Source: Acidimicrobiia bacterium (GTDB lineage Bacteria; Actinomycetota; Acidimicrobiia; Spongiisociales; ZC4RG35). From it: a DNA stretch of 64,000 nucleotides. Shown one piece after another: positions 5,268-22,342 of this stretch (positions are counted from its first letter, which is position 1; each line of letters opens with the position of its first letter). The stretch spans positions 1,088,001 through 1,152,000 of the forward strand of contig OZ244034.1 in NCBI GenBank assembly GCA_965215185.1, read 5' to 3'. Under the pieces are notes generated by a model. The model was given only the letters and a program-made list of their open reading frames with translations. It ran no database searches and was not told the DNA's origin. A program made the translations under genes and the position numbers.

Positions 5268-5551
5268 CGGTTTCGAAATCCGGTACAACCAGTTTCAGAA
5301 TTGGACGAAAGTGGTTTCACCGCTCTGTTCGCCCGATGCTGTGACCTGGGGTTGTGGGGTTTCGCGCCAGCGCCACAAGGGCGGTGGTGGCGCGAAACTC
5401 GGCGCGAAACTGGATGGGTTTAGGGTTTATGGTAGTTGGAGTGGGGAGTGGGGGGTGGGTTGTTGTGCGGGTGAGGTTTGGTGGGGGTGGGGGTGAGGGT
5501 TTTGGGCGTGTGGGCCGCGGTGGTCTAGGGCGGGGGTGTCTTTTGGGGGGT
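5268..5551 (-). repeat. Conserved downstream end of the DDE element
   Basis: GTTTC at 5270, 5292 and 5314, then GATGCTGTGACCTGGGG and the GTTTCGCGCCA...TGGCGCGAAAC inverted repeat. Homologous blocks at 7513-7619 and 20706-20878; partial at 5068-5150 and 17975-18010. Confidence 0.75.
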
Positions 5552-6937: not shown

Positions 6938-7156
6938 GTGCCGGTATATACTGATCGCTTTATGAGACCTGATCCAAACATCGCCTTGATCCTCTCAATC
7001 TTTTTGGGTGGACTGGGAATTGATCGCATGTACGTTGGCCAAATCGGGCTGGGTGTGCTGAAGCTCCTCACCGCTGGGGGGCTGGGCATCTGGTGGCTGG
7101 TCGATTTGTTCCTGATCCGCGGGATAGCCCGGAAAGCCCAGCAAGAAGGCACTTAG
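6938..7156 (+). CDS. TM2-domain membrane protein, copy 1
   Basis: ALILSIFLGGLGIDRMYVGQIGLGVLKLLTAGGLGIWWLVD is a TM2 signature. Confidence 0.8.
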   Translation: MPVYTDRFMRPDPNIALILSIFLGGLGIDRMYVGQIGLGVLKLLTAGGLGIWWLVDLFLIRGIARKAQQEGT

Positions 7157-7512
7157 CACCCTGAGCGAGGGTTAAGGTGCAGACCGTCCTTCCCTCGGGG
7201 GACATGTCAAGTGCCCGACCTCACCTAAAGGCCGTGGCTGTCCGGTAACCGCTATTCCCAAAGGCGGATAGCGAGGGAACCGAGAAGGTTTGTGGGGGAC
7301 TTTTCTGATCAGTTGTGGGGTAGTTGCTAACTGTCTAGGTTCCGTCATCGGTTCCTTCGCCGGTGGAGCCTGGTATTCGGAGTCTGATTACGGTGCATTA
7401 GTCGCTGCCCAGGCAGCCGGTTCCATCAGTTTCGATAACGAACTCAGGGCCGAACTGTCCGGCGCAACGATCCCCGACCGCAAGTGGATGAATCTCAAAA
7501 CGGGACCGGTAG

Positions 7513-7619
7513 CGGTTTCGGAATTGGCCAGAAGTGGTTTCAGAATTTGCTGAAAGTGGTTTCACCGGCCTGTTCGCGCGATGCTGTGACCTGGGGCGTT
7601 GTGGTTTCGCGCCAGCGCC
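7513..7619 (-). repeat. Isolated copy of the DDE-element end
   Basis: GTTTC at 7515, 7537 and 7559, followed by GATGCTGTGACCTGGGG...GTTTCGCGCCAGCGCC. Confidence 0.7.
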
Positions 7620-7841
7620 GACCCAACAGGGCCTCTCACACGATCACAGAATACGTGTCCGCCAAACCGGGGGAACTCCATTACCACTCCACCCTTTCAA
7701 ATAGGCGGTTCAACCGCAAGCTCCTTCTTTGCAGCCCAACCCTACGGTAGTTGATCCTTTCGGGGTGGTTCCGGTGCGTTGGTGGTGTGATGTGAGTGCG
7801 GTGGTCAATTACTGAGGTTCCCCTAAGTCTCTACCAAACCC

Positions 7842-7971
7842 ACTCATACTGATAGGGGTCCCTTGGCCGGGGCGGGTCTGACCCATACCAAACCTGGCTT
7901 TTGCCTTTGCCCGATCTGTCGGCCTGTTTCCGGCTGAGGGATTGTTCACCGACCCGTGGGCGGATGTGACC
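7842..7971 (+). ncRNA. Truncated IS110 left end / bridge RNA with the target-binding loop only (element C)
   Basis: Highly similar to the reverse complement of 10800-10932; interrupted by an IS3 inverted repeat at 7972. Confidence 0.8.
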
Positions 7972-8025
7972 TGAACCGTGCCGATGCTCCTAGGATGCTC
8001 CTATTTTTGTCAAATCGAGAGCATC

Positions 8026-9252
8026 CTAGATATTCGCAGGGTTTTGTTGGGTGAGCCATTGTTGGTATTGGGTGGCGAGGTGGTGGTTGTGGTATAGGCC
8101 TCGTTCGAGTTGGGAGATGCGGTTGGGGTGGGTTTGGAGGGCGGTGGCGGCGTGGGTGAGGGTGGTCTGTGTGTGGTGGCGTTGGGTGCGTAGGAGGGCG
8201 CCGTTGGGTGTTGGTGGTGGGTTGGTGAGCAGGTGGTAGATCTCTCGGGCGATGTGGCGTTTTAGGCAGCGGATGATCTCCCGGCGGGTTTTGCTCTCGG
8301 TTTGGCGGCGGTGGGTGTATTCGATGGTGGGTTGATGGCAGCGCATCCGGGTGGTGGCGATACGCCATAAGGCGTTGTTGGCTTGGCGGTCGCCGCCTCT
8401 GTTGAGCCGGTGGCGTATGGTCTGCCCGGAGGAGGCCTGGACGGGACTGGCGCCGCATAATGCTGCGAAAGACGCTTCGGTGGTCAGGCGTTTGGGGTTG
8501 TCTCCTGCTGTGACCAGCAAAGCGGCGGCCGTGTCAGGACCGACACCCGGGGCGGAGAGCAGCGCCGGGTTGGCTCGGGAACAAAGACGAGTGATCTCTT
8601 TGTCGAGTTCTTTGATCTCGGTGGTGAGCGCCTGGCAGCGGCGCGCCAGATAGCGCAGTGTTTTCTTGGCGACCGTGGTGGTGGTATCGGCTGTGCCGGG
8701 ACGAAACCCGGCACAGGCTCGGATCCGGGCTTTGGTCGACAGTCCCCGGAGTTGGTGTTTGACCTGCTCGGGAGCGGTGACCACTAGGGCGTGGAGTTGG
8801 TTGATGGCCTGGGTGCGGGCTTTGATTGCGGAACGGCGGACTACCCGCAACATCCTGATTCCCTCGACCAGTCCGTCGGCGGTTTTGGGTCGGGCGGTGG
8901 CTTCACCGTTGAGAGCGGCCCGCCCGGCGGCTTGGGCGTCGGTGGTGTCGGTTTTTCCCAGTCGGCGGCGCAGCTGACGGTTGGGACGGTTGACTTCTAC
9001 CACCTCGATACCGATCCCGGTGAGATAGCGGGTCAGGCCGGCGCCGTAGCTGCCGGTGCCTTCCACCCCAACCCGCACCACACGACCCTGGGATCTCAAC
9101 CAGCCGCCCAGTTCCTCAAAGCCGGTTGCATCGGCCGGGAACGGAGCGGTTCCCAGGACTCGACCGGCGGTGTCCACTGCCGCCGCGACATGACAATCGC
9201 GATGGGTGTCCACCCCGCCAAACACCTCGACCAGGCTCTCTTTTTGTGACAT
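8026..9252 (-). CDS. IS110-family DEDD recombinase with a C-terminal XRE-like HTH
   Basis: GGVDTH, GVEGTG, GKTDTTDA, QASSG, RGGDRQAN; tail LRTQR...TLTHAATALQTHPNRISQLERG. Confidence 0.95.
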   Translation of the reverse strand: MSQKESLVEVFGGVDTHRDCHVAAAVDTAGRVLGTAPFPADATGFEELGGWLRSQGRVVRVGVEGTGSYGAGLTRYLTGIGIEVVEVNRPNRQLRRRLGKTDTTDAQAAGRAALNGEATARPKTADGLVEGIRMLRVVRRSAIKARTQAINQLHALVVTAPEQVKHQLRGLSTKARIRACAGFRPGTADTTTTVAKKTLRYLARRCQALTTEIKELDKEITRLCSRANPALLSAPGVGPDTAAALLVTAGDNPKRLTTEASFAALCGASPVQASSGQTIRHRLNRGGDRQANNALWRIATTRMRCHQPTIEYTHRRQTESKTRREIIRCLKRHIAREIYHLLTNPPPTPNGALLRTQRHHTQTTLTHAATALQTHPNRISQLERGLYHNHHLATQYQQWLTQQNPANI

Positions 9253-9483
9253 GAATGTCTTCTTCTTCCTTGGATAGACTCGCGGGTATCACCGGACCGG
9301 AAGCGGTGGACAGAACACTCATGATGGTGTGGAGAAGCAAGGCTCCTATAAGGTCACATCCGCTCCCGGGTCGGGGAGTGTCCCCAGGCCGAAAGCAGGC
9401 CGACAGATCATAGATAAGGCACAAACGGCCAGTTTGTCAAGGGGTCAGACCCGCCCCGACCAAGGGACCCCACCATTATGAGT
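9253..9483 (-). ncRNA. Bridge RNA region of IS110 A
   Basis: Guide segments at 9432-9440 (left target), 9407-9413 (right target, 6/7 match), 9342-9349 and 9316-9322 (donor). Confidence 0.8.
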
Positions 9484-9488
9484 GTTTG

Positions 9489-10703
9489 TCAAATCGAGTT
9501 TTGTGTGGTGATCCATTGTTGGTATCGGGTGGCGAGTTGATGGTTGTGGTATTGGCCTCGCTCGAGTTGTGATAGGCGTATTGGGTAGGTGTGGAGGGCC
9601 TCGGCGGCGTGAGCGAGGGTTGTTCGCGTGTTTTTGCGTAGACAGCGCAGATGGGCGCCGTCGGGTGTGTCCGGTGGGTTGGTGAGCAGCCTGTGGATCT
9701 CTCGGGCGATGTGACGTTTGAGGCAGCGGATGATCTCGCGACGGTTTTTGCCTTCTGTTTGTCTTTTTTGGACATAGGCGATGGTTGGCTGGTGGCGGCG
9801 CATGCGGGTGGTGGCGATCCGCCACAGGGCCTGGTTGGCCTGGCGGTTCCCGCCGCGGTTGAGACGGTGCCGGACGGTACGTCCCGAGGACGCTTGGACA
9901 GGGCTTACGCCGCACAGAGCAGCGAAAGAGGATTCTGAGTGCATGCGTTCGGGGTTGTCGCCTGCTGCGACCAATAACACCGCGGCGGTGTCGGCGCCGA
10001 TCCCGGGGGCGGCCAACAGTGCCGGGTTGACCTGGGCGCAGAGATGGTTGATCTGGGTGGTGAGTTCTCCGATCTCTGCGGTGAGGGTCTGGTATCGGCG
10101 GGCCAGGGAACGCAACGCCGCTTTGGCGTATCTGATGGTGGTGTCGGCTGTGCCTGGGCGGAAACCGGCGCAGGTCTTTACGCGGGCTTTGGGAGAAAGT
10201 CCTCCAAGTTGGTGTCTGACCTGGTCGGGAGCGGTAACAATCAGGGCGTGCAGCTGGTTGATGGCCTGGGTTCGGGCTTTGGTCGCCGAACGGCGGGCCA
10301 CCGTGAGCATCCGTATTGCTTCTACTGGACCGTTACCGCTTTTGGGCACTGCGGTGGCCTGTCCGCTGAGAACCGCCCGAGCCGCGGCTTGGGCATCGGC
10401 GGTGTCAGTCTTGCCCAACCGGCGGCGCAACTGACGGTTTGCACGGTTCACTTCCACCGCCTCCATGCCGATACTGGTGAGGTGGCGGGCCAGACCGGCG
10501 CCGTAGCTGCCGGTGCCCTCCACCCCGACTCGGACCACCCTGCCGTGGGACTGTAGCCAATCGCCCAGTTGCTCATAACCGGCCGTGTCGACCGCGAAAG
10601 GGGCTGTTCCCAGGACTCGACCGGTGCTGTCCACCACCGCTGCCACATGAACATCCCGATGGGTGTCCACCCCACCAAACACATCTACCTGACCTACTGA
10701 CAT
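9489..10703 (-). CDS. IS110-family DEDD recombinase (element B) with a C-terminal XRE-like HTH
   Basis: Same motifs as element A; its TGA stop overlaps the right-end TTGACA. Confidence 0.95.
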   Translation of the reverse strand: MSVGQVDVFGGVDTHRDVHVAAVVDSTGRVLGTAPFAVDTAGYEQLGDWLQSHGRVVRVGVEGTGSYGAGLARHLTSIGMEAVEVNRANRQLRRRLGKTDTADAQAAARAVLSGQATAVPKSGNGPVEAIRMLTVARRSATKARTQAINQLHALIVTAPDQVRHQLGGLSPKARVKTCAGFRPGTADTTIRYAKAALRSLARRYQTLTAEIGELTTQINHLCAQVNPALLAAPGIGADTAAVLLVAAGDNPERMHSESSFAALCGVSPVQASSGRTVRHRLNRGGNRQANQALWRIATTRMRRHQPTIAYVQKRQTEGKNRREIIRCLKRHIAREIHRLLTNPPDTPDGAHLRCLRKNTRTTLAHAAEALHTYPIRLSQLERGQYHNHQLATRYQQWITTQNSI

Positions 10704-10932
10704 GATTCCTCCTACTCGGAATATAATTCGGGCTGTTCACCAGACCCGCTGGCGGATGGACAACACACTCATGGTGGTGGAGAAGCAAGGCTCCTATCAG
10801 GTCACATCCGCCCACGGGTCGGTGAACAATCCCCCAGCCGGAAAACAGGTCGACAGATCGGCACCAAGGCACAAAACCAGGTTTCATAAGGGTCAGACCC
10901 GCCCCGGCCAAGGGACCCCTATCAGTATGAGT
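10704..10932 (-). ncRNA. Bridge RNA region of IS110 B
   Basis: Guide segments at 10880-10888 and 10857-10864 (target), 10790-10797 and 10766-10772 (donor). Confidence 0.8.
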
Positions 10933-11150
10933 GGGTTTCATAGAGGGTTGGTTGTTTGTGTAATTGGGGGTTTGATCGGGTTGGTTTGATGGTAGTTGGT
11001 TTCGTGTTCGGCGGGGGTGGTGTAGGTGGTATCTGGGGTGATTCCGCGAGGGTGGCGAAGGTGGTGTGGTCAAGGTCTCGCCAGGGTCCCCGGTTGCGGA
11101 TCAGTTCAGTTTTGTATAGACCGATGGTGGTCTCTGCCAGGGCATTGTCA

Positions 11151-11529
11151 AAGCCTCTATGAGTTTTCTCAGGTCAACAACCACGAAATGGGTGTGCTGG
11201 TTGACAGGAGTCAGTCCAGGGACCTGTACATGCAGATCTACGACGAGGCGATGAGGATTGTACGCCTGAGCGACGAAATCCGGGTCAAGGTTGCCCGAGT
11301 ACCGAAAGCACCCGTCGAGGATCCCCGACCCGGTGAGGCTCCCACCTGTCCAAAGTGCAACGAGACCATGGTCGTTCGCACAGCCAGGAAAGGCGCCAAC
11401 AAGGGCGAAACCTTTTGGGGGTGCTCCACCTTCCCCAAGTGCTGGGGCATGAGGCCTCTTGAAACTGCCCAAGCTGCCCCAAAGACCCCTTCCCGACGTG
11501 GGTTCCGTTCCCGACGGAAACGTTCTTAG
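11151..11529 (+). pseudogene. 5'-truncated gene: PLD-like C-terminal piece plus topoisomerase-type C4 zinc ribbon
   Basis: LYEFSQVNNHEMGVL...CPKCNETMVVR...FWGCSTFPKC. Confidence 0.65.
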
Positions 11530-11596
11530 CGATCACCCTAAGTACTCGCTGGCTTAGTCCTTAGGGGGTCGGTCGGTTAGTGAGGCTGGACCAGAG

Positions 11597-12050
11597 CTAT
11601 AGGTTTGGTCCAGTCGTTTGGCCACGATCCTGCCCGAGTCCGGCCAGACAGTCGGCCATGTCGTTCAAGGCGTGTCCGGAATGGCTTTTCACCTTCTCCC
11701 AGCGGATGTCCCGTCCGTTGAGCAGCCCGGCGATGGTTTCGATCAGTTCTCTGTGCGCCACCGGTTTACCCCCGGATCTCCGCATGTTGCGCTCGCGCCA
11801 ACCGGGAAGCCATTTGGTGAACGTTTTGATGACATATCTGCTGTCCGCTTGGATCAACAGCGGCTGGTCCGGTGGGAGAGACACCTAGAGTCTCGAGGAG
11901 GGCGGTCAGTTCCATGGCTTGGTGCGTTGTGTTGGGGTCACTGCCCCATTGGTACCGGCCGTCTTCGGTGGCCCATCCCCAGCCACCGGCGCCGCCCCTA
12001 ATTTCGCCAGACCCGTCAGTAGCGACAGTCAATCTTCTCATTTTGTTCAC
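11597..12050 (-). pseudogene. rnhA: Ribonuclease HI, frameshifted near 11886
   Basis: TDGS...GWG...MELTA in one frame; DSRYVI...W...KPV...WEKVKSHSGHALNDMAD in the next. Confidence 0.8.
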
Positions 12051-12263: not shown

Positions 12264-13082
12264 TTAGTCGGCATCAGGGTTTTGGGTCCTACTAGTTAGG
12301 TGTTCCTGTATCTGTCCTAACGAAGCTTCGATGCGTTCTTGGCGCTGTTCAAGAGACCTCAGTCGGTTAACGAGGTCGGACTCTTGGTCTGATTCAACGA
12401 AGTATGCGGCTATGTTGGCGGTAATGAAGGACACCACCCCGATCCCGGCCAGCATCAATACCACCGCGGTTGCCCGGCCTCCCGTAGTGACCGGGGAGAA
12501 ATCTCCGTAACCGACGGTGGTGAGGGTCACCACCGTCCACCATAGGCCATCAACTAGCGAGTGTCCCTCGAATAAAGCGAACAGCCCCCCGGTTGCCAAC
12601 GCTATGAGAACGAAGGCGGCGGTTGCGTAGCCGAGTCCCCGCTTTCGGAGAACGCGACGCAGATGCGTCAAACCCCGGGCGGAAGCCGCCGCTAAACCCG
12701 CCAACCGGAGAAGGCGAAGAACCCGGACAAGGCGAGACAATCGCGCAAGCCGGGTGAGAGCGAACAGTTCGCCCAGCAGTGGAAAAGAGACAAGAATGAC
12801 CAGAAGGTCCAGCCAGGCCTTCCTGGCATAAGCAAGACGGTCGTCGGTCAGGAGAATCACCACCGCGAATTCCACAGTGAACGCTGCCCAGATAAGCCAA
12901 TTGACTATCTCGAAAACAGTCTCCCACCCACCGACGGCGATCTGTTCGCCTATTACTACCGGGAGAACCGCCAGCGCCGCAACCATCACCGGTATCTCGA
13001 ACTGTTGACGAACCTTCGCAGCCCGCGGGTTCAGCACATCGTCGATAGTCCGGTGATCCCTCACAAATCCCAAAGAGTACAC
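12264..13082 (-). CDS. Potassium channel family protein (6TM type)
   Basis: TTVGYGD selectivity filter and an Arg-rich S4-like helix (RLARLSRLVRVLRLLR). Confidence 0.9.
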   Translation of the reverse strand: MYSLGFVRDHRTIDDVLNPRAAKVRQQFEIPVMVAALAVLPVVIGEQIAVGGWETVFEIVNWLIWAAFTVEFAVVILLTDDRLAYARKAWLDLLVILVSFPLLGELFALTRLARLSRLVRVLRLLRLAGLAAASARGLTHLRRVLRKRGLGYATAAFVLIALATGGLFALFEGHSLVDGLWWTVVTLTTVGYGDFSPVTTGGRATAVVLMLAGIGVVSFITANIAAYFVESDQESDLVNRLRSLEQRQERIEASLGQIQEHLTSRTQNPDAD

Positions 13083-20015: not shown

Positions 20016-20705
20016 TCGGCCCGGTCCACGATCAAACCGGGTGTCCACCGGCAATACCCGAGTCCACGGTTGGGTGTCCACGGTTCGGTTCTTGTGATCA
20101 TTTTCGCTCCGGTATGCGCCCGCTGGTCACGGTTTGAACGTGACCCATACACCTAAACCTTGTTTCCCGGTGTTGATCCCCGGATGTTGCGGGCCTGTAG
20201 AGGCGGTGACTAGATGGTTGGAGACCCGAGGCGTATTTGATGGGAGCCTACCCGCATCCCCATAAAACCTTCGCTTGTTACGCCCCTGTCCGCTATTCGA
20301 CCGGGATCCAAGACATTGGTCTACGCTTAGGTACCCACTGTGAAAAACGACATGGCCACCACCAGCACTGATGATCTTTGGCGGCTGGCATGGTCCGCCG
20401 CTCCCGCTGGTGCCTTAACGACTTCGCCGTTCAGTGCTTCCGACTTGATCTGGTCAAGGAGCGACTTACCCAACGTGGTCTCCAGTGGGTAGGCAATCAC
20501 CTAGCGAAACCGCGTTAACGGACACAACCATCGATGCATTGGCAGGACGAGCGGCCCCAGTGGAATGCGACCCAGCCGAACCCGCTATGTAGGACATCCT
20601 TCAATCTTAAGAGGACGACCGCTGCAAGGGAGGTAACTACAAGAGCGGCTTGGAGGTGCGTGACCGAGAATTCCACGGGGCGCAACTTTGAGGACATGCG
20701 GCAGC

Positions 20706-20878
20706 CGTTTCAGGAATAGCCAAAACTGGTTTCGGAATTGGCTGAAAGTGATTTCAGCGTCCTGTTTGCGGGATGCTGTGACCTGGGGTGTTTTGGTTTC
20801 GCGCCAGCGCCCAAGGGCGGGGTTGGCGCGAAACTGTTGGGGTTTCTGTGCTTATGGTAGTTGGGGCGGAGAGTGGGG
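20706..20878 (-). repeat. DDE-element end of copy 3, separated from its transposase by an IS3 insertion
   Basis: (G/A)TTTC at 20707, 20729 and 20751; homology continues at 22202. Confidence 0.75.
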
Positions 20879-20976
20879 TGAACCGCGCCGGGTTTGGTAG
20901 AGGGTTTGGTGGTACCCGACTTTGGTGGAGTCGGGTTATTTGAATTGGTGGTGTGACTGACCCGGAAGGAGTCTTC

Positions 20977-21285
20977 ATGCCTTATCGATATCCACCCGAG
21001 TTCCGTCGCAGGGTGCTGGATCTGCTGGCAGTTGGCAGGTCGGTAGCGTCGTTGTCAGCGGATCTTGGGGTGTCTGATCAGACGATCTACAACTGGCGGC
21101 GCCAAGACCGAATCGACCGCGGTCTACAACCGGGTGCCACTTCGGAGGAACAGGCCGAACTGTGGGCCGCTCGCTGTCGGATCGTCGAGCTGGAAACCGA
21201 ACTGGCCGTGACCAAGCGGGCTATTGAACTGCTGGGAGACCAGGTGGTGCACCTCAAAGACGCTACCAGGCGATCCGGACCATGA
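20977..21285 (+). CDS. IS3-family OrfA
   Basis: MPYRYPPEFRRRVL...LGVSDQTIYNWRRQ HTH. Confidence 0.85.
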   Translation: MPYRYPPEFRRRVLDLLAVGRSVASLSADLGVSDQTIYNWRRQDRIDRGLQPGATSEEQAELWAARCRIVELETELAVTKRAIELLGDQVVHLKDATRRSGP

Positions 21286-22153
21286 GAACCGAAGGGCTTC
21301 CCAGGTGGCGTGTCGAGTGCTCGAGGTGTCACAGTCCGGGTTCTACGCCAGGGTGGTCCCGGCCGCCGTCAGCCCGCTTGCATCCGCCACGCCTGGTTGA
21401 CCGACGTCATCTGTCACATCCATGAACAGTCACGCGGCACCTATGGGGCGCGGCGGGTGCACGCCGAACTGCGGTTGGGTCATGGAATAACCGTCGGACA
21501 CAACGCAGTAGCGATGCTGATGCGCAGAGCCGGTCTAGCTGGTCTTAGTAGGTGACCGAAGTCCCAGACGGCGGACCCGCCCGGTGGACACGCCCGGTGG
21601 ACCTGGTCGACCGTAACTTCGCCCGTTTCGAACCGGACCAACTGTGGGTGACCGATATCACAGAGCATCCCACCCGGCAAGCGCAAGGTGTACTGCGCGG
21701 TGGTGCTGGACGTGTACGGGCCGCCGGGTCGTCGGCTGGTCGATCGACAACACGGCCACCTCCGGACTGGTCACCTCCGCGTTAGGTATGGCAATCGGGA
21801 ACCGCCAACCCGACCCCGGCACGGTCATACATTCGGACCAGGGCACCCAATTCACCTCCTGGGCGTTCACCCAACGGGCCCTCGAATCCGGTCTGGTTCC
21901 GTCCATGGGAACCGTCGGGGACTGTTTCGATAACGCCACCATGGAATCGTTTTGGGCTCGTATGCAGGTCGAGCTGTTGGACCGCAGGAGGTGGAGGACC
22001 CGTATCGAACTCGCCAACGCTATCTTCGAGTACCTAGAGATCTTCCACAACCGCCACCGGCGCCACACCGCACTGGAAATGCGCACCCCCATCGAATACG
22101 AAAGAAACCACAACAACAACCTAACCATCGCACCACTGATCCAAGTGAGCTGA
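21282..22153 (+). pseudogene. IS3-family OrfB, multiply frameshifted
   Basis: YGARRVHAEL, LWVTDIT, HSDQGTQF, DNATMESF. Confidence 0.85.
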
Positions 22154-22342
22154 CTCCACAAAACCGGGGGACCATCACTCTATGAATCCCGGTACGGTTC
22201 AGGGGGTTGGTTGTGGCGCGGGTGGGGTTTATGTGAGGTTTTGAGGGGCTGGATCTAGGGGTTTTGGAGTGTGGGCCGCGGTGATCCAGGGCTTTTGGGT
22301 GTTTGGCCCGCGGTGATCTGGGGCGGGGTGGTTTTGGGGTGT

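What the first reader, a model, noticed from the sequence alone, without database searches (positions are those of the whole stretch)
7832..10945. Three IS110 bridge RNAs whose guides co-vary with their own insertion sites
Seen: three homologous left ends share a scaffold (CTGACCC-N10-TGG...GCC...GATCTGTCG) but differ in the variable slot, and each slot equals its own left flank. A has TTGACAAAC (9432-9440 vs 9484-9492), B has TATGAAACC (10880-10888 vs 10934-10942), C has TACCAAACC (7886-7894 vs 7832-7840). A second slot matches the right junction in reverse (B 8/8 ATCGGCAC; A 6/7). Two slots shared by A and B (ATAGGAGC, ATGAGTG) match the element's own ends. Established: this is the target-loop/donor-loop layout of IS110 bridge RNAs. 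Inference: a natural reprogramming series with one donor specificity and three target specificities.
Basis: partly seen in the sequence, partly recalled or inferred. Interest (0 to 1): 0.85.

Follow-up and report, generated by a model that had tools for sequence, protein, structure and literature searches.

The report
Nested IS110 elements with bridge RNAs
Two stacked jumping genes and the stump of a third carry guide-RNA genes whose variable loops spell out their own insertion sites, a clean natural example of the already known IS110 bridge-RNA mechanism rather than a new kind of system.

Summary
Window 7842-10932 holds two complete IS110-family elements on the minus strand, plus a truncated left end. 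A (7995-9483) is inserted inside the right end of B (9485-10932 plus 7984-7993). C (7842-~7971, plus strand) is cut off just before its donor loop.

Each left end folds into two stem-loops with internal loops. The first loop carries a 9-nt slot identical to the element's left flank and a slot reverse-complementary to its right flank. The second carries constant slots matching the element's own ends.

Across 23 distinct guide/flank pairs, from this genome and from named Acidimicrobiia MAG records, 18 match at 8-9 of 9. Own mean is 7.9 against 4.3 for non-own pairs, and 0 of 20,000 permutations reach it. Two pairs do not match.

B and C aim at two sequence variants of an IS3-family terminal inverted repeat; A aims at the right end of sibling IS110 elements. 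A TTGACA-N17-CATAMT promoter is rebuilt across the right-end/left-end junction.

This is the published IS110 bridge-RNA layout (2024), and natural retargeting among relatives is also published. It is a new family member with minor variants. Nothing here shows RNA expression or activity.

The parts
7832..7841 (+). Left target of C (TACCAAACC, 7832-7840) plus the crossover C (7841). It resembles the left inverted repeat of the IS3-family copy at 20879, read in reverse complement.
   Evidence: It matches C's guide slot 9/9. 12 of 13 nt match CCTCTACCAAACC, the reverse complement of 20893-20905.
7842..7971 (+). C, a truncated IS110 left end. It has the target-binding domain only: left guide 7886-7894 and right-guide side 7908-7915. 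It is cut just before the donor guide (TAGGAGC) by the terminus of an IS3-type inverted repeat. The boundary is ambiguous within TGA at 7972-7974.
   Evidence: 91% identical to B's left end over 149 nt. No donor loop, and no transposase gene nearby.
7972..7983 (-). Outer part of an IS3-type terminal inverted repeat (minus-strand C-GGCACGGTTCA). This is B's right target, with the crossover C at 7983.
   Evidence: Uninterrupted paralogs at genome 1545653(+), 1110181(+) (= window 22181) and 911689(-) read TATGAA[ATG]CCCGG[CT]ACGGTT.
7984..7993 (-). Last 10 nt of B's right end (CTAGGAGCAT), separated from the rest of B by the insertion of A. A's right crossover C is at 7994.
   Evidence: With a single shared C, B's rebuilt right end has a 13-nt tail after TTGACA. 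That is the same tail length that gives the 17-nt spacer in the 5 of 5 complete copies of this genome listed.
7995..9483 (-). Element A, a complete IS110-family element of 1489 bp. Right end 7995-8025, transposase ORF 8026-9252 (408 aa), left end 9253-9483. In the left end: left target guide 9432-9440, right target guide plus constant GAT 9407-9416, left donor guide 9340-9349, right donor guide plus TT handshake-like dinucleotide 9314-9322.
9484..9492 (-). A's left target TTGACAAAC. It is part of B's right end and includes B's -35-like TTGACA. The crossover C is at 9484.
   Evidence: 9/9 match to A's guide.
9485..10932 (-). Element B, main part (1448 bp; 1459 bp including the shared C and 7984-7993). 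Transposase ORF 9489-10703 (404 aa), left end 10704-10932. In the left end: left target guide 10880-10888, right target guide plus GAT 10857-10865, left donor guide 10788-10797, right donor guide plus TG dinucleotide 10764-10772.
10933..10995 (-). B's crossover C (10933), B's left target TATGAAACC (10934-10942) and the inner part of the same IS3-type terminal repeat.
   Evidence: 87% identical over 62 nt to genome 911681-911742, where the repeat is uninterrupted.
20879..22205 (+). An IS3-family element used as reference for the target repeats. Left repeat TGAACCGCGCCGGGTTTGGTAGAGGG starts at 20880. The right repeat ends ...CTCTATGAATCCCGGTACGGTTCA at about 22200. The ORFs are broken.
   Evidence: (HTH_Tnp_1 and rve domains), and 57 (best NCBIfam match is IS3 family, below the cutoff because the ORF is partial).

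Best explanation
These are IS110-family (IS110 subgroup) insertion sequences whose roughly 230-nt left ends encode bridge RNAs.

The predicted RNA has two domains.

- Target-binding domain. A stem (GGGGCGGGTCTGAC / GTCGGCCTGyyy) encloses an internal loop. Its 5' side is a 9-nt left target guide, identical to the top strand of the left flank. [quoted passage not shown] A constant AU follows that is complementary to the last two bases of the element's own right end.
- Donor-binding domain. A stem (GGAUGUGAC / GUC..CC) encloses constant guides. ATAGGAGC matches the right-end terminus, and AUGAGUG is complementary to the left-end start CACTCAT. A following dinucleotide co-varies with the two target bases before the crossover point.

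Recombination between the circular form (...GGAGCAT-C-ACTCAT...) and the target crosses over at a single conserved C. The circle junction rebuilds a TTGACA-N17-CATA(A/C)T promoter that would drive the RNA and the transposase.

Inferred local history:
1. C inserted into an IS3-type terminal repeat.
2. Another IS3-type element inserted into C just before its donor guide.
3. B inserted into that element's terminal repeat.
4. A inserted into B's right end, between B's -35 hexamer and B's terminus.
5. Later loss removed the rest of C and most of the IS3-type element.

Shown here: the sequence matches, their statistics, structure covariation, protein family and catalytic residues, empty-site paralogs. 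Inferred: that the RNA is made, binds the transposase and directs insertion.
For: Protein.
- Both ORFs hit PF01548 and PF02371.
- Both hit NF033542, 'IS110 family RNA-guided transposase', at 197 and 202 bits against a cutoff of 140.
- B aligns to IS621 transposase (PDB 8wt6, E 1.7e-14) with Asp, Glu, Asp, Asp and the Ser of the SG motif conserved. The residue names come from the passage read.

Guide against flank.
- Within this genome: own mean 8.2/9 against 4.97/9 for non-own pairs, 0 of 100,000 permutations.
- Adding named Acidimicrobiia MAG loci: 23 distinct pairs, 18 at 8/9 or better, own mean 7.87 against 4.31, 0 of 20,000 permutations.
- Right guide against right flank: own mean 4.81/7 against 2.85/7 for 16 elements, 0 of 20,000 permutations.
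- Examples: c979 9/9 and 7/7; B 9/9 and 6/7.

Donor guides are constant and match the element ends in all 22 rows.

The handshake-like dinucleotide matches the target bases in 28 of 38 positions over 19 rows; 2 of 100,000 permutations reach this.

Structure. The RNAalifold consensus of 19 left ends gives the two-domain fold. 95.5% of cells are paired, against 37-58% when partners are slid. 9 of 40 pairs carry compensatory changes (5 of 500 shuffles reach this). Covariation score is 0.237 against 0.196 +/- 0.008 (0 of 500 shuffles).

Junction promoter: the spacer is 17 nt in 15 of 17 rows and 18 nt in 2.

Empty sites. Three uninterrupted paralogs exist for B's target and two for the c3012/c3102 target.

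Published layout for comparison.
Against: - No direct evidence of the RNA. Rfam 15 has no matching family (0 hits at E<=1 over 7000-12000).
- The only RNA-library data are short metatranscriptome contigs of depth 2-5. They lie on the left ends and also on ORF parts, so they cannot prove transcription.
- 2 of 23 distinct pairs (L041, L073) score 3/9 against their own guide.
- Unlike IS621, no 2-nt core shared by donor and target is visible. Only one C is shared.
- The left guide sits in two registers relative to that C.
- No two copies in this genome are identical. The closest are the left ends of A and A2, at 98%. Recent activity here is therefore not shown.
- 26 of 39 related loci had no scaffold by my strict pattern and were not examined further.
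Confidence: 0.9

Rival explanations
1. The mechanism is as above, but everything in the window is fossil. A, B and C record past guide-directed insertions and none is mobile now. This is compatible with the main explanation; it is a rival only to the idea of a working system in this genome.
For: - All 12 left-end copies in the genome differ. Transposase matches are 68-84% identical to B, and many are fragments.
- B's right end is split by A, separating B's -35 hexamer from its terminus.
- C lacks a donor loop and a transposase.
- One perfect B target (genome 1545653) is still unoccupied.
Against: - The A and B ORFs are intact, with catalytic residues.
- A has complete ends and an ideal junction promoter, TTGACA-N17-CATAAT.
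- In a related genome two copies are about 100% identical at different sites (L044 and L073), so the family has been active recently elsewhere.
Confidence: 0.4
2. Site choice is made by the protein, or by DNA-DNA pairing with conserved motifs (...AAC-C on the left, C... on the right). The slot/flank identities arise because related elements sit in related repeats, not from an RNA guide.
For: - Many targets share a ...AA(A/C)C-C tail.
- Several targets are repeats: IS3 terminal repeats and sibling right ends.
- No RNA evidence was obtained here.
Against: - With the shared 3-nt tail left out, the six variable positions still match: own values are 6,4,6,6,6,6,6,3,6,5 of 6, against a non-own mean of 2.83.
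- The slots lie in internal loops of a fold supported by compensatory changes.
- The two slots pair with opposite strands, exactly as in the experimentally proven IS621 system.
Confidence: 0.04
3. The slot is copied from the flank after insertion, for example by repair or gene conversion between flank and left end, so the identity is a consequence of insertion rather than its cause.
For: None specific. It would also give own-flank identity.
Against: - The slot lies about 45 nt inside the element, between conserved stems, with no flanking homology to drive conversion.
- The right-flank slot is in reverse complement.
- Uninserted paralogs of the targets exist that already carry the guide-matching sequence.
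- L044 and L073 are about 100% identical copies that keep the same slots at two different sites.
Confidence: 0.02

Closest known systems
IS621 (E. coli) and the IS110-subgroup bridge RNA (Durrant et al. 2024, PMC11208160; Hiraizumi et al. 2024, PMC11208158; passages read)
   Same: - DEDD/Ser recombinase.
- Long left end upstream of the gene and a short right end.
- RNA with a target-binding loop followed by a donor-binding loop.
- A 9-nt left guide of the same sense as the left flank.
- A right guide that is the reverse complement of the right flank, here 6-9 nt, like the 'longer RTG' orthologues the paper mentions.
- Donor guides that match the element ends.
- Handshake-type positions next to the right guides.
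- A sigma-70-type promoter rebuilt across the right-end/left-end junction.
   Different: - The protein matches IS621 only distantly (E 1.7e-14, two local stretches).
- There is no CT core. Only a single C is demonstrably shared between donor (..GCAT-C-ACTCAT) and target.
- The left guide ends either on that C or one base before it.
- The host lineage is Acidimicrobiia MAGs.
- The targets are the ends of other insertion sequences rather than REP elements.
ISEc11 / ISXne4 and other seekRNA elements (Siddiquee et al. 2024, PMC11187229; abstract and passages read)
   Same: Relatives with about 72% identical transposases differ in the target-matching stretch of the RNA and sit in different targets. 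The authors call this 'natural re-direction' or 'natural re-programming'. It is the same phenomenon as the A/B/C series, where A and B are 74% identical.
   Different: Those examples are mostly IS1111-type, with the RNA downstream of the gene and the order of the two strand-matching stretches reversed. Here the RNA is upstream (IS110 type), and the series lies in one genome, partly nested in one locus.
[quoted passage not shown]
   Same: A DEDD-transposase element whose specific target is the terminal inverted repeat of another mobile element. Here B and C sit in IS3-family terminal repeats.
   Different: A different subgroup and a different target family. The guide/target pairing for B and C is inferred here from sequence only.
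Expanded and tandem IS110 loci (bioRxiv 10.64898/2026.08.14.744561; passages read)
   Same: That preprint reports recurrent insertion into already occupied IS110 loci, tandem IS110 modules, a lack of target immunity, and the suggestion that bridge RNA can act in trans.
   Different: In the window the second element (A) is a diverged sibling, not a duplicate. Its target loop matches a site inside the first element's right end, so the nesting is guide-directed rather than a tandem duplication.

Membership tests
IS110 family, IS110 subgroup (bridge-RNA elements) | Recombinase with an N-terminal RuvC-like DEDD domain and a C-terminal Tnp domain carrying the catalytic Ser | tested here: met
   A and B both hit PF01548 and PF02371 and NF033542, above its cutoff. 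B aligned to IS621 (8wt6) shows D, E, D, D and the Ser of the SG motif conserved. A shares these motifs in the A/B alignment.
IS110 family, IS110 subgroup (bridge-RNA elements) | Long non-coding left end upstream of the gene and a short right end | tested here: met
   Left ends are 231 nt (A, 9253-9483) and 229 nt (B, 10704-10932). Right ends are 31 nt (A) and about 15 nt (B, rebuilt).
IS110 family, IS110 subgroup (bridge-RNA elements) | Left-end RNA folds into stem-loops with two prominent internal loops, the first variable and the second conserved | tested here: met
   Consensus folds of 8 and 19 left ends, with pair counts and controls. The first loop's slots vary and the second loop's slots are constant. 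This is prediction only.
IS110 family, IS110 subgroup (bridge-RNA elements) | Left target guide equals the top strand of the left flank; right target guide is the reverse complement of the right flank | tested here: met
   Own matches far exceed non-own matches, with 0 permutations reaching the observed sums. 2 of 23 pairs fail.
IS110 family, IS110 subgroup (bridge-RNA elements) | Donor guides match the element's right-end terminus and left-end start | tested here: met
   ATAGGAGC against ...ATAGGAGCAT, and (A/G/C)TGAGTG against CACTCA(T), in all 22 rows and in the right ends listed.
IS110 family, IS110 subgroup (bridge-RNA elements) | A core dinucleotide shared by donor and target and covered by all four guides | tested here: inconclusive
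   Comparing empty and occupied sites shows only one shared C. The base before it is T at every right junction and A or C at left junctions. The left guide covers the C in one class of elements and stops one base short in the other.
IS110 family, IS110 subgroup (bridge-RNA elements) | Handshake guides: positions next to the right guides pair with the non-cognate DNA after strand exchange | tested here: met
   The constant AU after the right target guide is complementary to the donor's ..AT before the crossover C, and not to the targets' CC or AC. The dinucleotide after the right donor guide co-varies with the target bases: 28 of 38 positions, 2 of 100,000 permutations. The published definition was read.
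IS110 family, IS110 subgroup (bridge-RNA elements) | A promoter rebuilt across the right-end/left-end junction of the circular form | tested here: met
   A -35 hexamer in the right end (TTGACA, or the variants TTGCAA/TTGTAA that one search also accepted), a 17-nt spacer, then CATA(A/C)T in the left end, in 15 of 17 rows. This is in silico only, and the circle itself was not observed.
IS110 family, IS110 subgroup (bridge-RNA elements) | The RNA is expressed, binds the recombinase, and reprogramming it retargets insertion | not testable with these tools
   Only low-depth metatranscriptome contigs lie on the left ends. That is no proof of transcription, ends or binding.
Rfam curated RNA family | Match to a curated covariance model | tested here: not met
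   0 matches at E<=1 over window 7000-12000 on both strands. I cannot tell from this whether Rfam 15 holds any bridge-RNA model.

The most novel reading that the evidence does not exclude
The sibling IS110 elements of this lineage form a guild. They share one donor loop and carry many target loops, so any sibling's bridge RNA can move any sibling's circle. This would explain L073, an exact copy of L044 sitting in a site that resembles the site of sibling L079 in the same genome, and L041.

One sub-lineage (A, A2, c909, and the element whose right end abuts CTAGGAG in L053) is programmed against the right end of its own siblings. It inserts between the sibling's -35 hexamer and its terminus, and so disables the sibling's junction promoter. 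That would make it a hyperparasitic insertion sequence. A's own right end escapes because the crossover C is replaced by A (TTGACAAAA against the guide TTGACAAAC).
Probability: 0.25. Interest if true: 0.55.

Novelty: new member of a known kind. Interest (0 to 1): 0.35.

Why it matters
This is a well-documented natural series, in one 3.1-Mb Acidimicrobiia-type genome, of one recombinase/donor scaffold carrying at least nine different target loops. Empty-site paralogs fix the crossover point.

For people who engineer bridge recombinases it offers:
- a distant orthologue family with long right guides;
- a single-base crossover instead of a CT core;
- two left-guide registers;
- a clear handshake dinucleotide.

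For mobile-element biology it shows guide-directed nesting: an IS110 in the right end of a sibling IS110, and IS110s in IS3 terminal repeats. Two guides (B and C) track two variants of the same repeat.

None of this changes the known mechanism.

Tried and rejected
1. First crossover model: a 2-nt CA core, with the element running CTCAT...GGAG. Rejected. Five empty-site paralogs lack the extra CAT that this model predicts, and its predicted B target has no good match in the genome. The single-C model also gives the 17-nt promoter spacer and the normal right-end length for B.

2. Rfam scan of 7000-12000 at E<=1 gave nothing.

3. RNA evidence. One search for runs and one laying of four runs. RNA-library contigs lie on A's left end: X1 record 3, 184 nt, 9316-9496, 1 other letter and 1 gap; and X2 record 9, 9298-9569, 11 other letters. 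They lie on B's left end: X2 records 13 and 14, 10779-10958. They also lie on ORF parts. Depths are 2-5, and contigs cannot show starts, ends, strand or transcription. I treat this as no evidence either way. No joint corresponding to a circle junction was listed.

4. Showing that the fragment right of B (10946-11155, minus strand) is an IS3 transposase remnant.
   - tblastn and blastn against the window's IS3 copy gave nothing.
   - Pfam gave 0 families at E<=1.
   - Its IS3-type nature therefore rests only on the terminal repeat and its paralogs.

5. The remainder of C was not found near the window.

6. The first RNAalifold run on 19 full left ends paired the left-end start with the right donor guide. 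This is expected from their complementarity, and I discarded it because the predicted transcript starts downstream of the -10 hexamer. The trimmed run was used instead.

7. 26 of 39 related loci had no scaffold under my strict pattern and were not analysed further. They may hold diverged left ends.

8. c2345's 'right end' candidate is probably not cognate, because its left end is truncated by another element. It was kept in the count and scored 0/7.

Supplementary files of the papers were not opened; Durrant et al.'s supplementary tables of orthologues and targets could already list this family.

10. Literature searches: (IS110 + Acidimicrobiia: 0 papers).

Full report
**What is there.**
The window is G000:C1:1088001-1152000 of a single-contig 3.12-Mb genome. 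On the minus strand lie two ORFs: A at 8026-9252 (408 aa) and B at 9489-10703 (404 aa). They are 74% identical, 294 of 397 residues.
- Both carry PF01548 (DEDD_Tnp_IS110) and PF02371.
- Both pass NCBIfam NF033542, 'IS110 family RNA-guided transposase', at 197 and 202 bits against a cutoff of 140.
- The only solved relative is IS621 transposase (8wt6, E 1.7e-14). In that alignment B keeps the residues corresponding to D11, E60, D102, D105 and S241. Those names come from the passage read, and the two-residue offset of the chain numbering is my inference.
- Upstream of each ORF is a 229-231-nt non-coding left end. A third homologous left end, C, lies on the plus strand at 7842-~7971.

**The observation.**
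The three left ends share the scaffold. They differ in a 10-nt slot between GTCTGACCC and TGG and in a second slot before GATCTGTCG.

**More copies.**
blastn and a pattern search found 12 left-end copies in this genome, plus a 26-nt left-end start remnant at 2601481. Every one starts (C)ACTCAT.

For 10 copies taken as independent, the 9-nt slot matches the copy's own left flank at 9,7,9,9,9,8,9,6,8,8 of 9. I dropped c374 and c3102, which repeat c979 and c3012 including their flanks. Non-own pairs average 4.97 (n=90), and 0 of 100,000 permutations reach the observed sum. Counting only the six variable positions gives 6,4,6,6,6,6,6,3,6,5 of 6 against 2.83.

A scan of species-representative genomes with protein B returned 39 loci, nearly all from records titled as Acidimicrobiia or other Actinomycetota MAGs. 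13 of the 39 carry the scaffold under my pattern and 26 do not.

Pooling everything gives 28 elements and 23 distinct guide/flank pairs:
- 18 of 23 match at 8/9 or better, and 2 of 23 (L041, L073) match at 3/9.
- The own mean is 7.87 against 4.31 for non-own pairs, with 0 of 20,000 permutations reaching it.
- For the 16 elements with a right-end candidate, the right slot (reverse complement) matches the 7 nt after the right end at 4.81 on average, against 2.85, again with 0 of 20,000 permutations.
- For B I supplied the right flank beyond A by coordinates. For elements with several right-end candidates the best one was taken, in the own and non-own comparisons alike.

**Fold.**
RNAalifold on 8 and then 19 left ends gives two domains.
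- Domain 1 is a long stem enclosing an internal loop, with the left slot on the 5' side, a 3-bp hairpin (GGC/GCC), and the right slot on the 3' side.
- Domain 2 is a stem (GG.UG.GAC / GUC.CA.CC, extended by a strongly co-varying outer helix) enclosing the constant ATAGGAGC and ATGAGTG slots.

On alignment A4, 95.5% of cells pair, against 37-58% when partners are slid by 1-3 columns. 9 of 40 pairs have compensatory changes (5 of 500 shuffles reach this). The covariation score exceeds all 500 shuffles. The pairs that RNAalifold draws between the two donor slots never show a double change, and I do not rely on them.

**Comparison with the published layout.**
I read passages of Durrant et al. 2024.
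[quoted passage not shown] - The donor loop does the same with the element's ends.
- The left guide is 9 nt and the right guide 4-7 nt or longer.
- The circle junction rebuilds a promoter.
- The RNA was discovered by exactly this kind of guide/target covariation (5,511 target pairs).
- It works in trans.

Hiraizumi et al. 2024 (passages) add handshake guides next to the right guides. These pair with the other DNA after strand exchange.

All of these features are found here.
- The constant AU after the right target guide is complementary to the donor's last two bases (..GCAT) and not to the targets.
- The dinucleotide after the right donor guide co-varies with the two target bases before the crossover. 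Examples: UU with AA in A, A2, L051 and L053; GU with AC in c979, c2398, L044, L045b and L048; GA with TC in L049.
- Over 19 rows that is 28 of 38 positions, and 2 of 100,000 permutations reach it. Three of the 22 rows were dropped: c3102 and L063 as duplicates, and L042 because its flank is cut by the contig end.

**Crossover point.**
Uninterrupted paralogs exist for two target families. Comparing them with the occupied sites shows that the left and right junctions share only one C. The element runs ACTCAT...GGAGCAT, and the base before the shared C is the target's on the left and T on the right.
- B's target, TATGAA[ATG]CCCGG[CT]ACGGTT: genome 1545653, 1110181 and 911689.
- The c3012/c3102 target, ACTGA[AT]ATCCGATGAGCC: genome 2519242 and 2507889.

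With this junction, the right end's -35 hexamer (TTGACA, or the variants TTGCAA/TTGTAA accepted) and the left end's CATA(A/C)T are 17 nt apart in 15 of 17 rows and 18 nt apart in 2. B's rebuilt right end then has the normal length.

I first assumed a CA core and rejected it (see Tried and rejected).

The left guide ends on the shared C in one class of elements and one base before it in another. Either a real register shift or a 1-nt target bulge fits, and I could not decide between them.
- Ends on the C: A, c979, c2345, c1005, L040/L045a, L044, L045b, L051, L053.
- Ends one base before: B, C, c3012/c3102, c2398, L048, L049, L068, L072, L079.

**What the guides aim at.**
The sequence cut by B is the terminal inverted repeat of an IS3-family element.
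- A fuller copy in the window (20879-22205) has HTH_Tnp_1 and rve ORFs. Its best NCBIfam match is IS3, below the cutoff because the ORF is partial.
- Its ends read TGAACCGCGCCGGGTTTGGTAGAGGG... and ...CTCTATGAATCCCGGTACGGTTCA.
- Further copies are listed.

B's guide TATGAAACC fits the ...TTTCATAGAG variant. One perfect full target remains unoccupied at genome 1545653. C's guide TACCAAACC fits the ...TTTGGTAGAG variant 9/9. So B and C are aimed at two variants of one repeat.

A's guide TTGACAAAC lies in B's right end, and A's right flank is the last 10 nt of B's right end. A2 and c909 also sit in right-end-like CGATTTGCAAAAC. Stacked right ends occur near c979 and c374 and in L049 and L053.

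A's own right end reads TTGACAAAA, 8/9 to its guide, with the crossover C missing.

**Local history (inference).**
1. C inserted into an IS3-type repeat.
2. An IS3-type element inserted into C at 7972, just before C's donor guide.
3. B inserted into that element's repeat.
4. A inserted into B's right end.
5. The rest of C and most of the IS3-type element were lost. No transposase remnant of it could be shown.

**The two misfits.**
L073 is about 100% identical to L044 from the same genome. It lies in a site that does not fit its own guides. The site resembles the site and guides of a third sibling, L079, in that genome: GCCTGAATC against the flank GCCTGAAATC, and CACCGA against CACCAG.

L041 carries c979-type guides but sits in a c3012-type site.

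Because the donor loop is shared and bridge RNA works in trans, use of a sibling's RNA is the simplest reading. Exchange of left ends by recombination is the alternative. Neither was tested.

**Novelty.**
The following are all in print:
- the mechanism (2024);
- its discovery by guide/target covariation;
- 'natural re-programming' among relatives (Siddiquee et al.);
- DEDD elements that target other elements' terminal repeats (a reference title seen);
- recurrent insertion into occupied IS110 loci, with RNA acting in trans (preprint passages).

No paper in the library combines IS110 with Acidimicrobiia.

I therefore file this as a new member of a known kind. The minor variants worth noting are the single-base crossover, the two guide registers, and guide-directed nesting in a sibling's right end. 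The finding is real, neat and well supported, but not surprising to a specialist.

Noticed in passing
window 20879-22205: An IS3-family element with 5'-TG...CA-3' terminal inverted repeats. Its orfA is intact (20953-21285). Its orfB region is broken into pieces; only a 169-aa rve ORF remains at 21644-22153. Near-identical orfB copies lie at genome 1281095, 1544412 and 1623507.
   Followed up: partly
window 7507-7619, 20699-20811 and 5268-5374: A repeat of about 110 nt (80-85% identical copies; also at genome 3093809 and 1314043) lies upstream of both C and the IS3 copy. It is of unknown nature, possibly a small non-coding repeat family.
   Followed up: no
genome 978,2xx-979,9xx and 371,0xx-374,1xx (loci L006, L007, L014-L017): Stacks of several IS110-type right ends follow one another directly, for example ...CATAGAAGCA|TCGATTTGACAACCATAGGAGCA|TC... 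That indicates repeated insertion of IS110 relatives into each other's right ends. Transposase fragments of 44-50% identity show a second, more distant IS110 lineage.
   Followed up: partly
L049 and L063 (named MAG record OZ242000.1): These two copies are about 316 nt longer than their siblings and contain two right-end motifs (+1466 and +1782). Only the outer one is followed by the guide-matching flank.
   Followed up: no
genome 2601456-2601481 (minus strand): An isolated 26-nt match to the left-end start (CACTCATACTTATAGGGGCCCCTTGA), preceded by ...GCCTCAAC, with nothing else of the element. It may be a remnant or a chance match.
   Followed up: no
window 9489-9491: B's stop codon TGA lies inside the TTGACA hexamer of its own right end, so the transposase ORF overlaps the -35 element of the junction promoter.
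   Followed up: no
window 11026-11529 and 12264-13082: Next to the insertion-sequence cluster lie an ORF with a topoisomerase-type C4 zinc ribbon (PF01396) and an ion-channel ORF (PF07885/PF00520).
   Followed up: no
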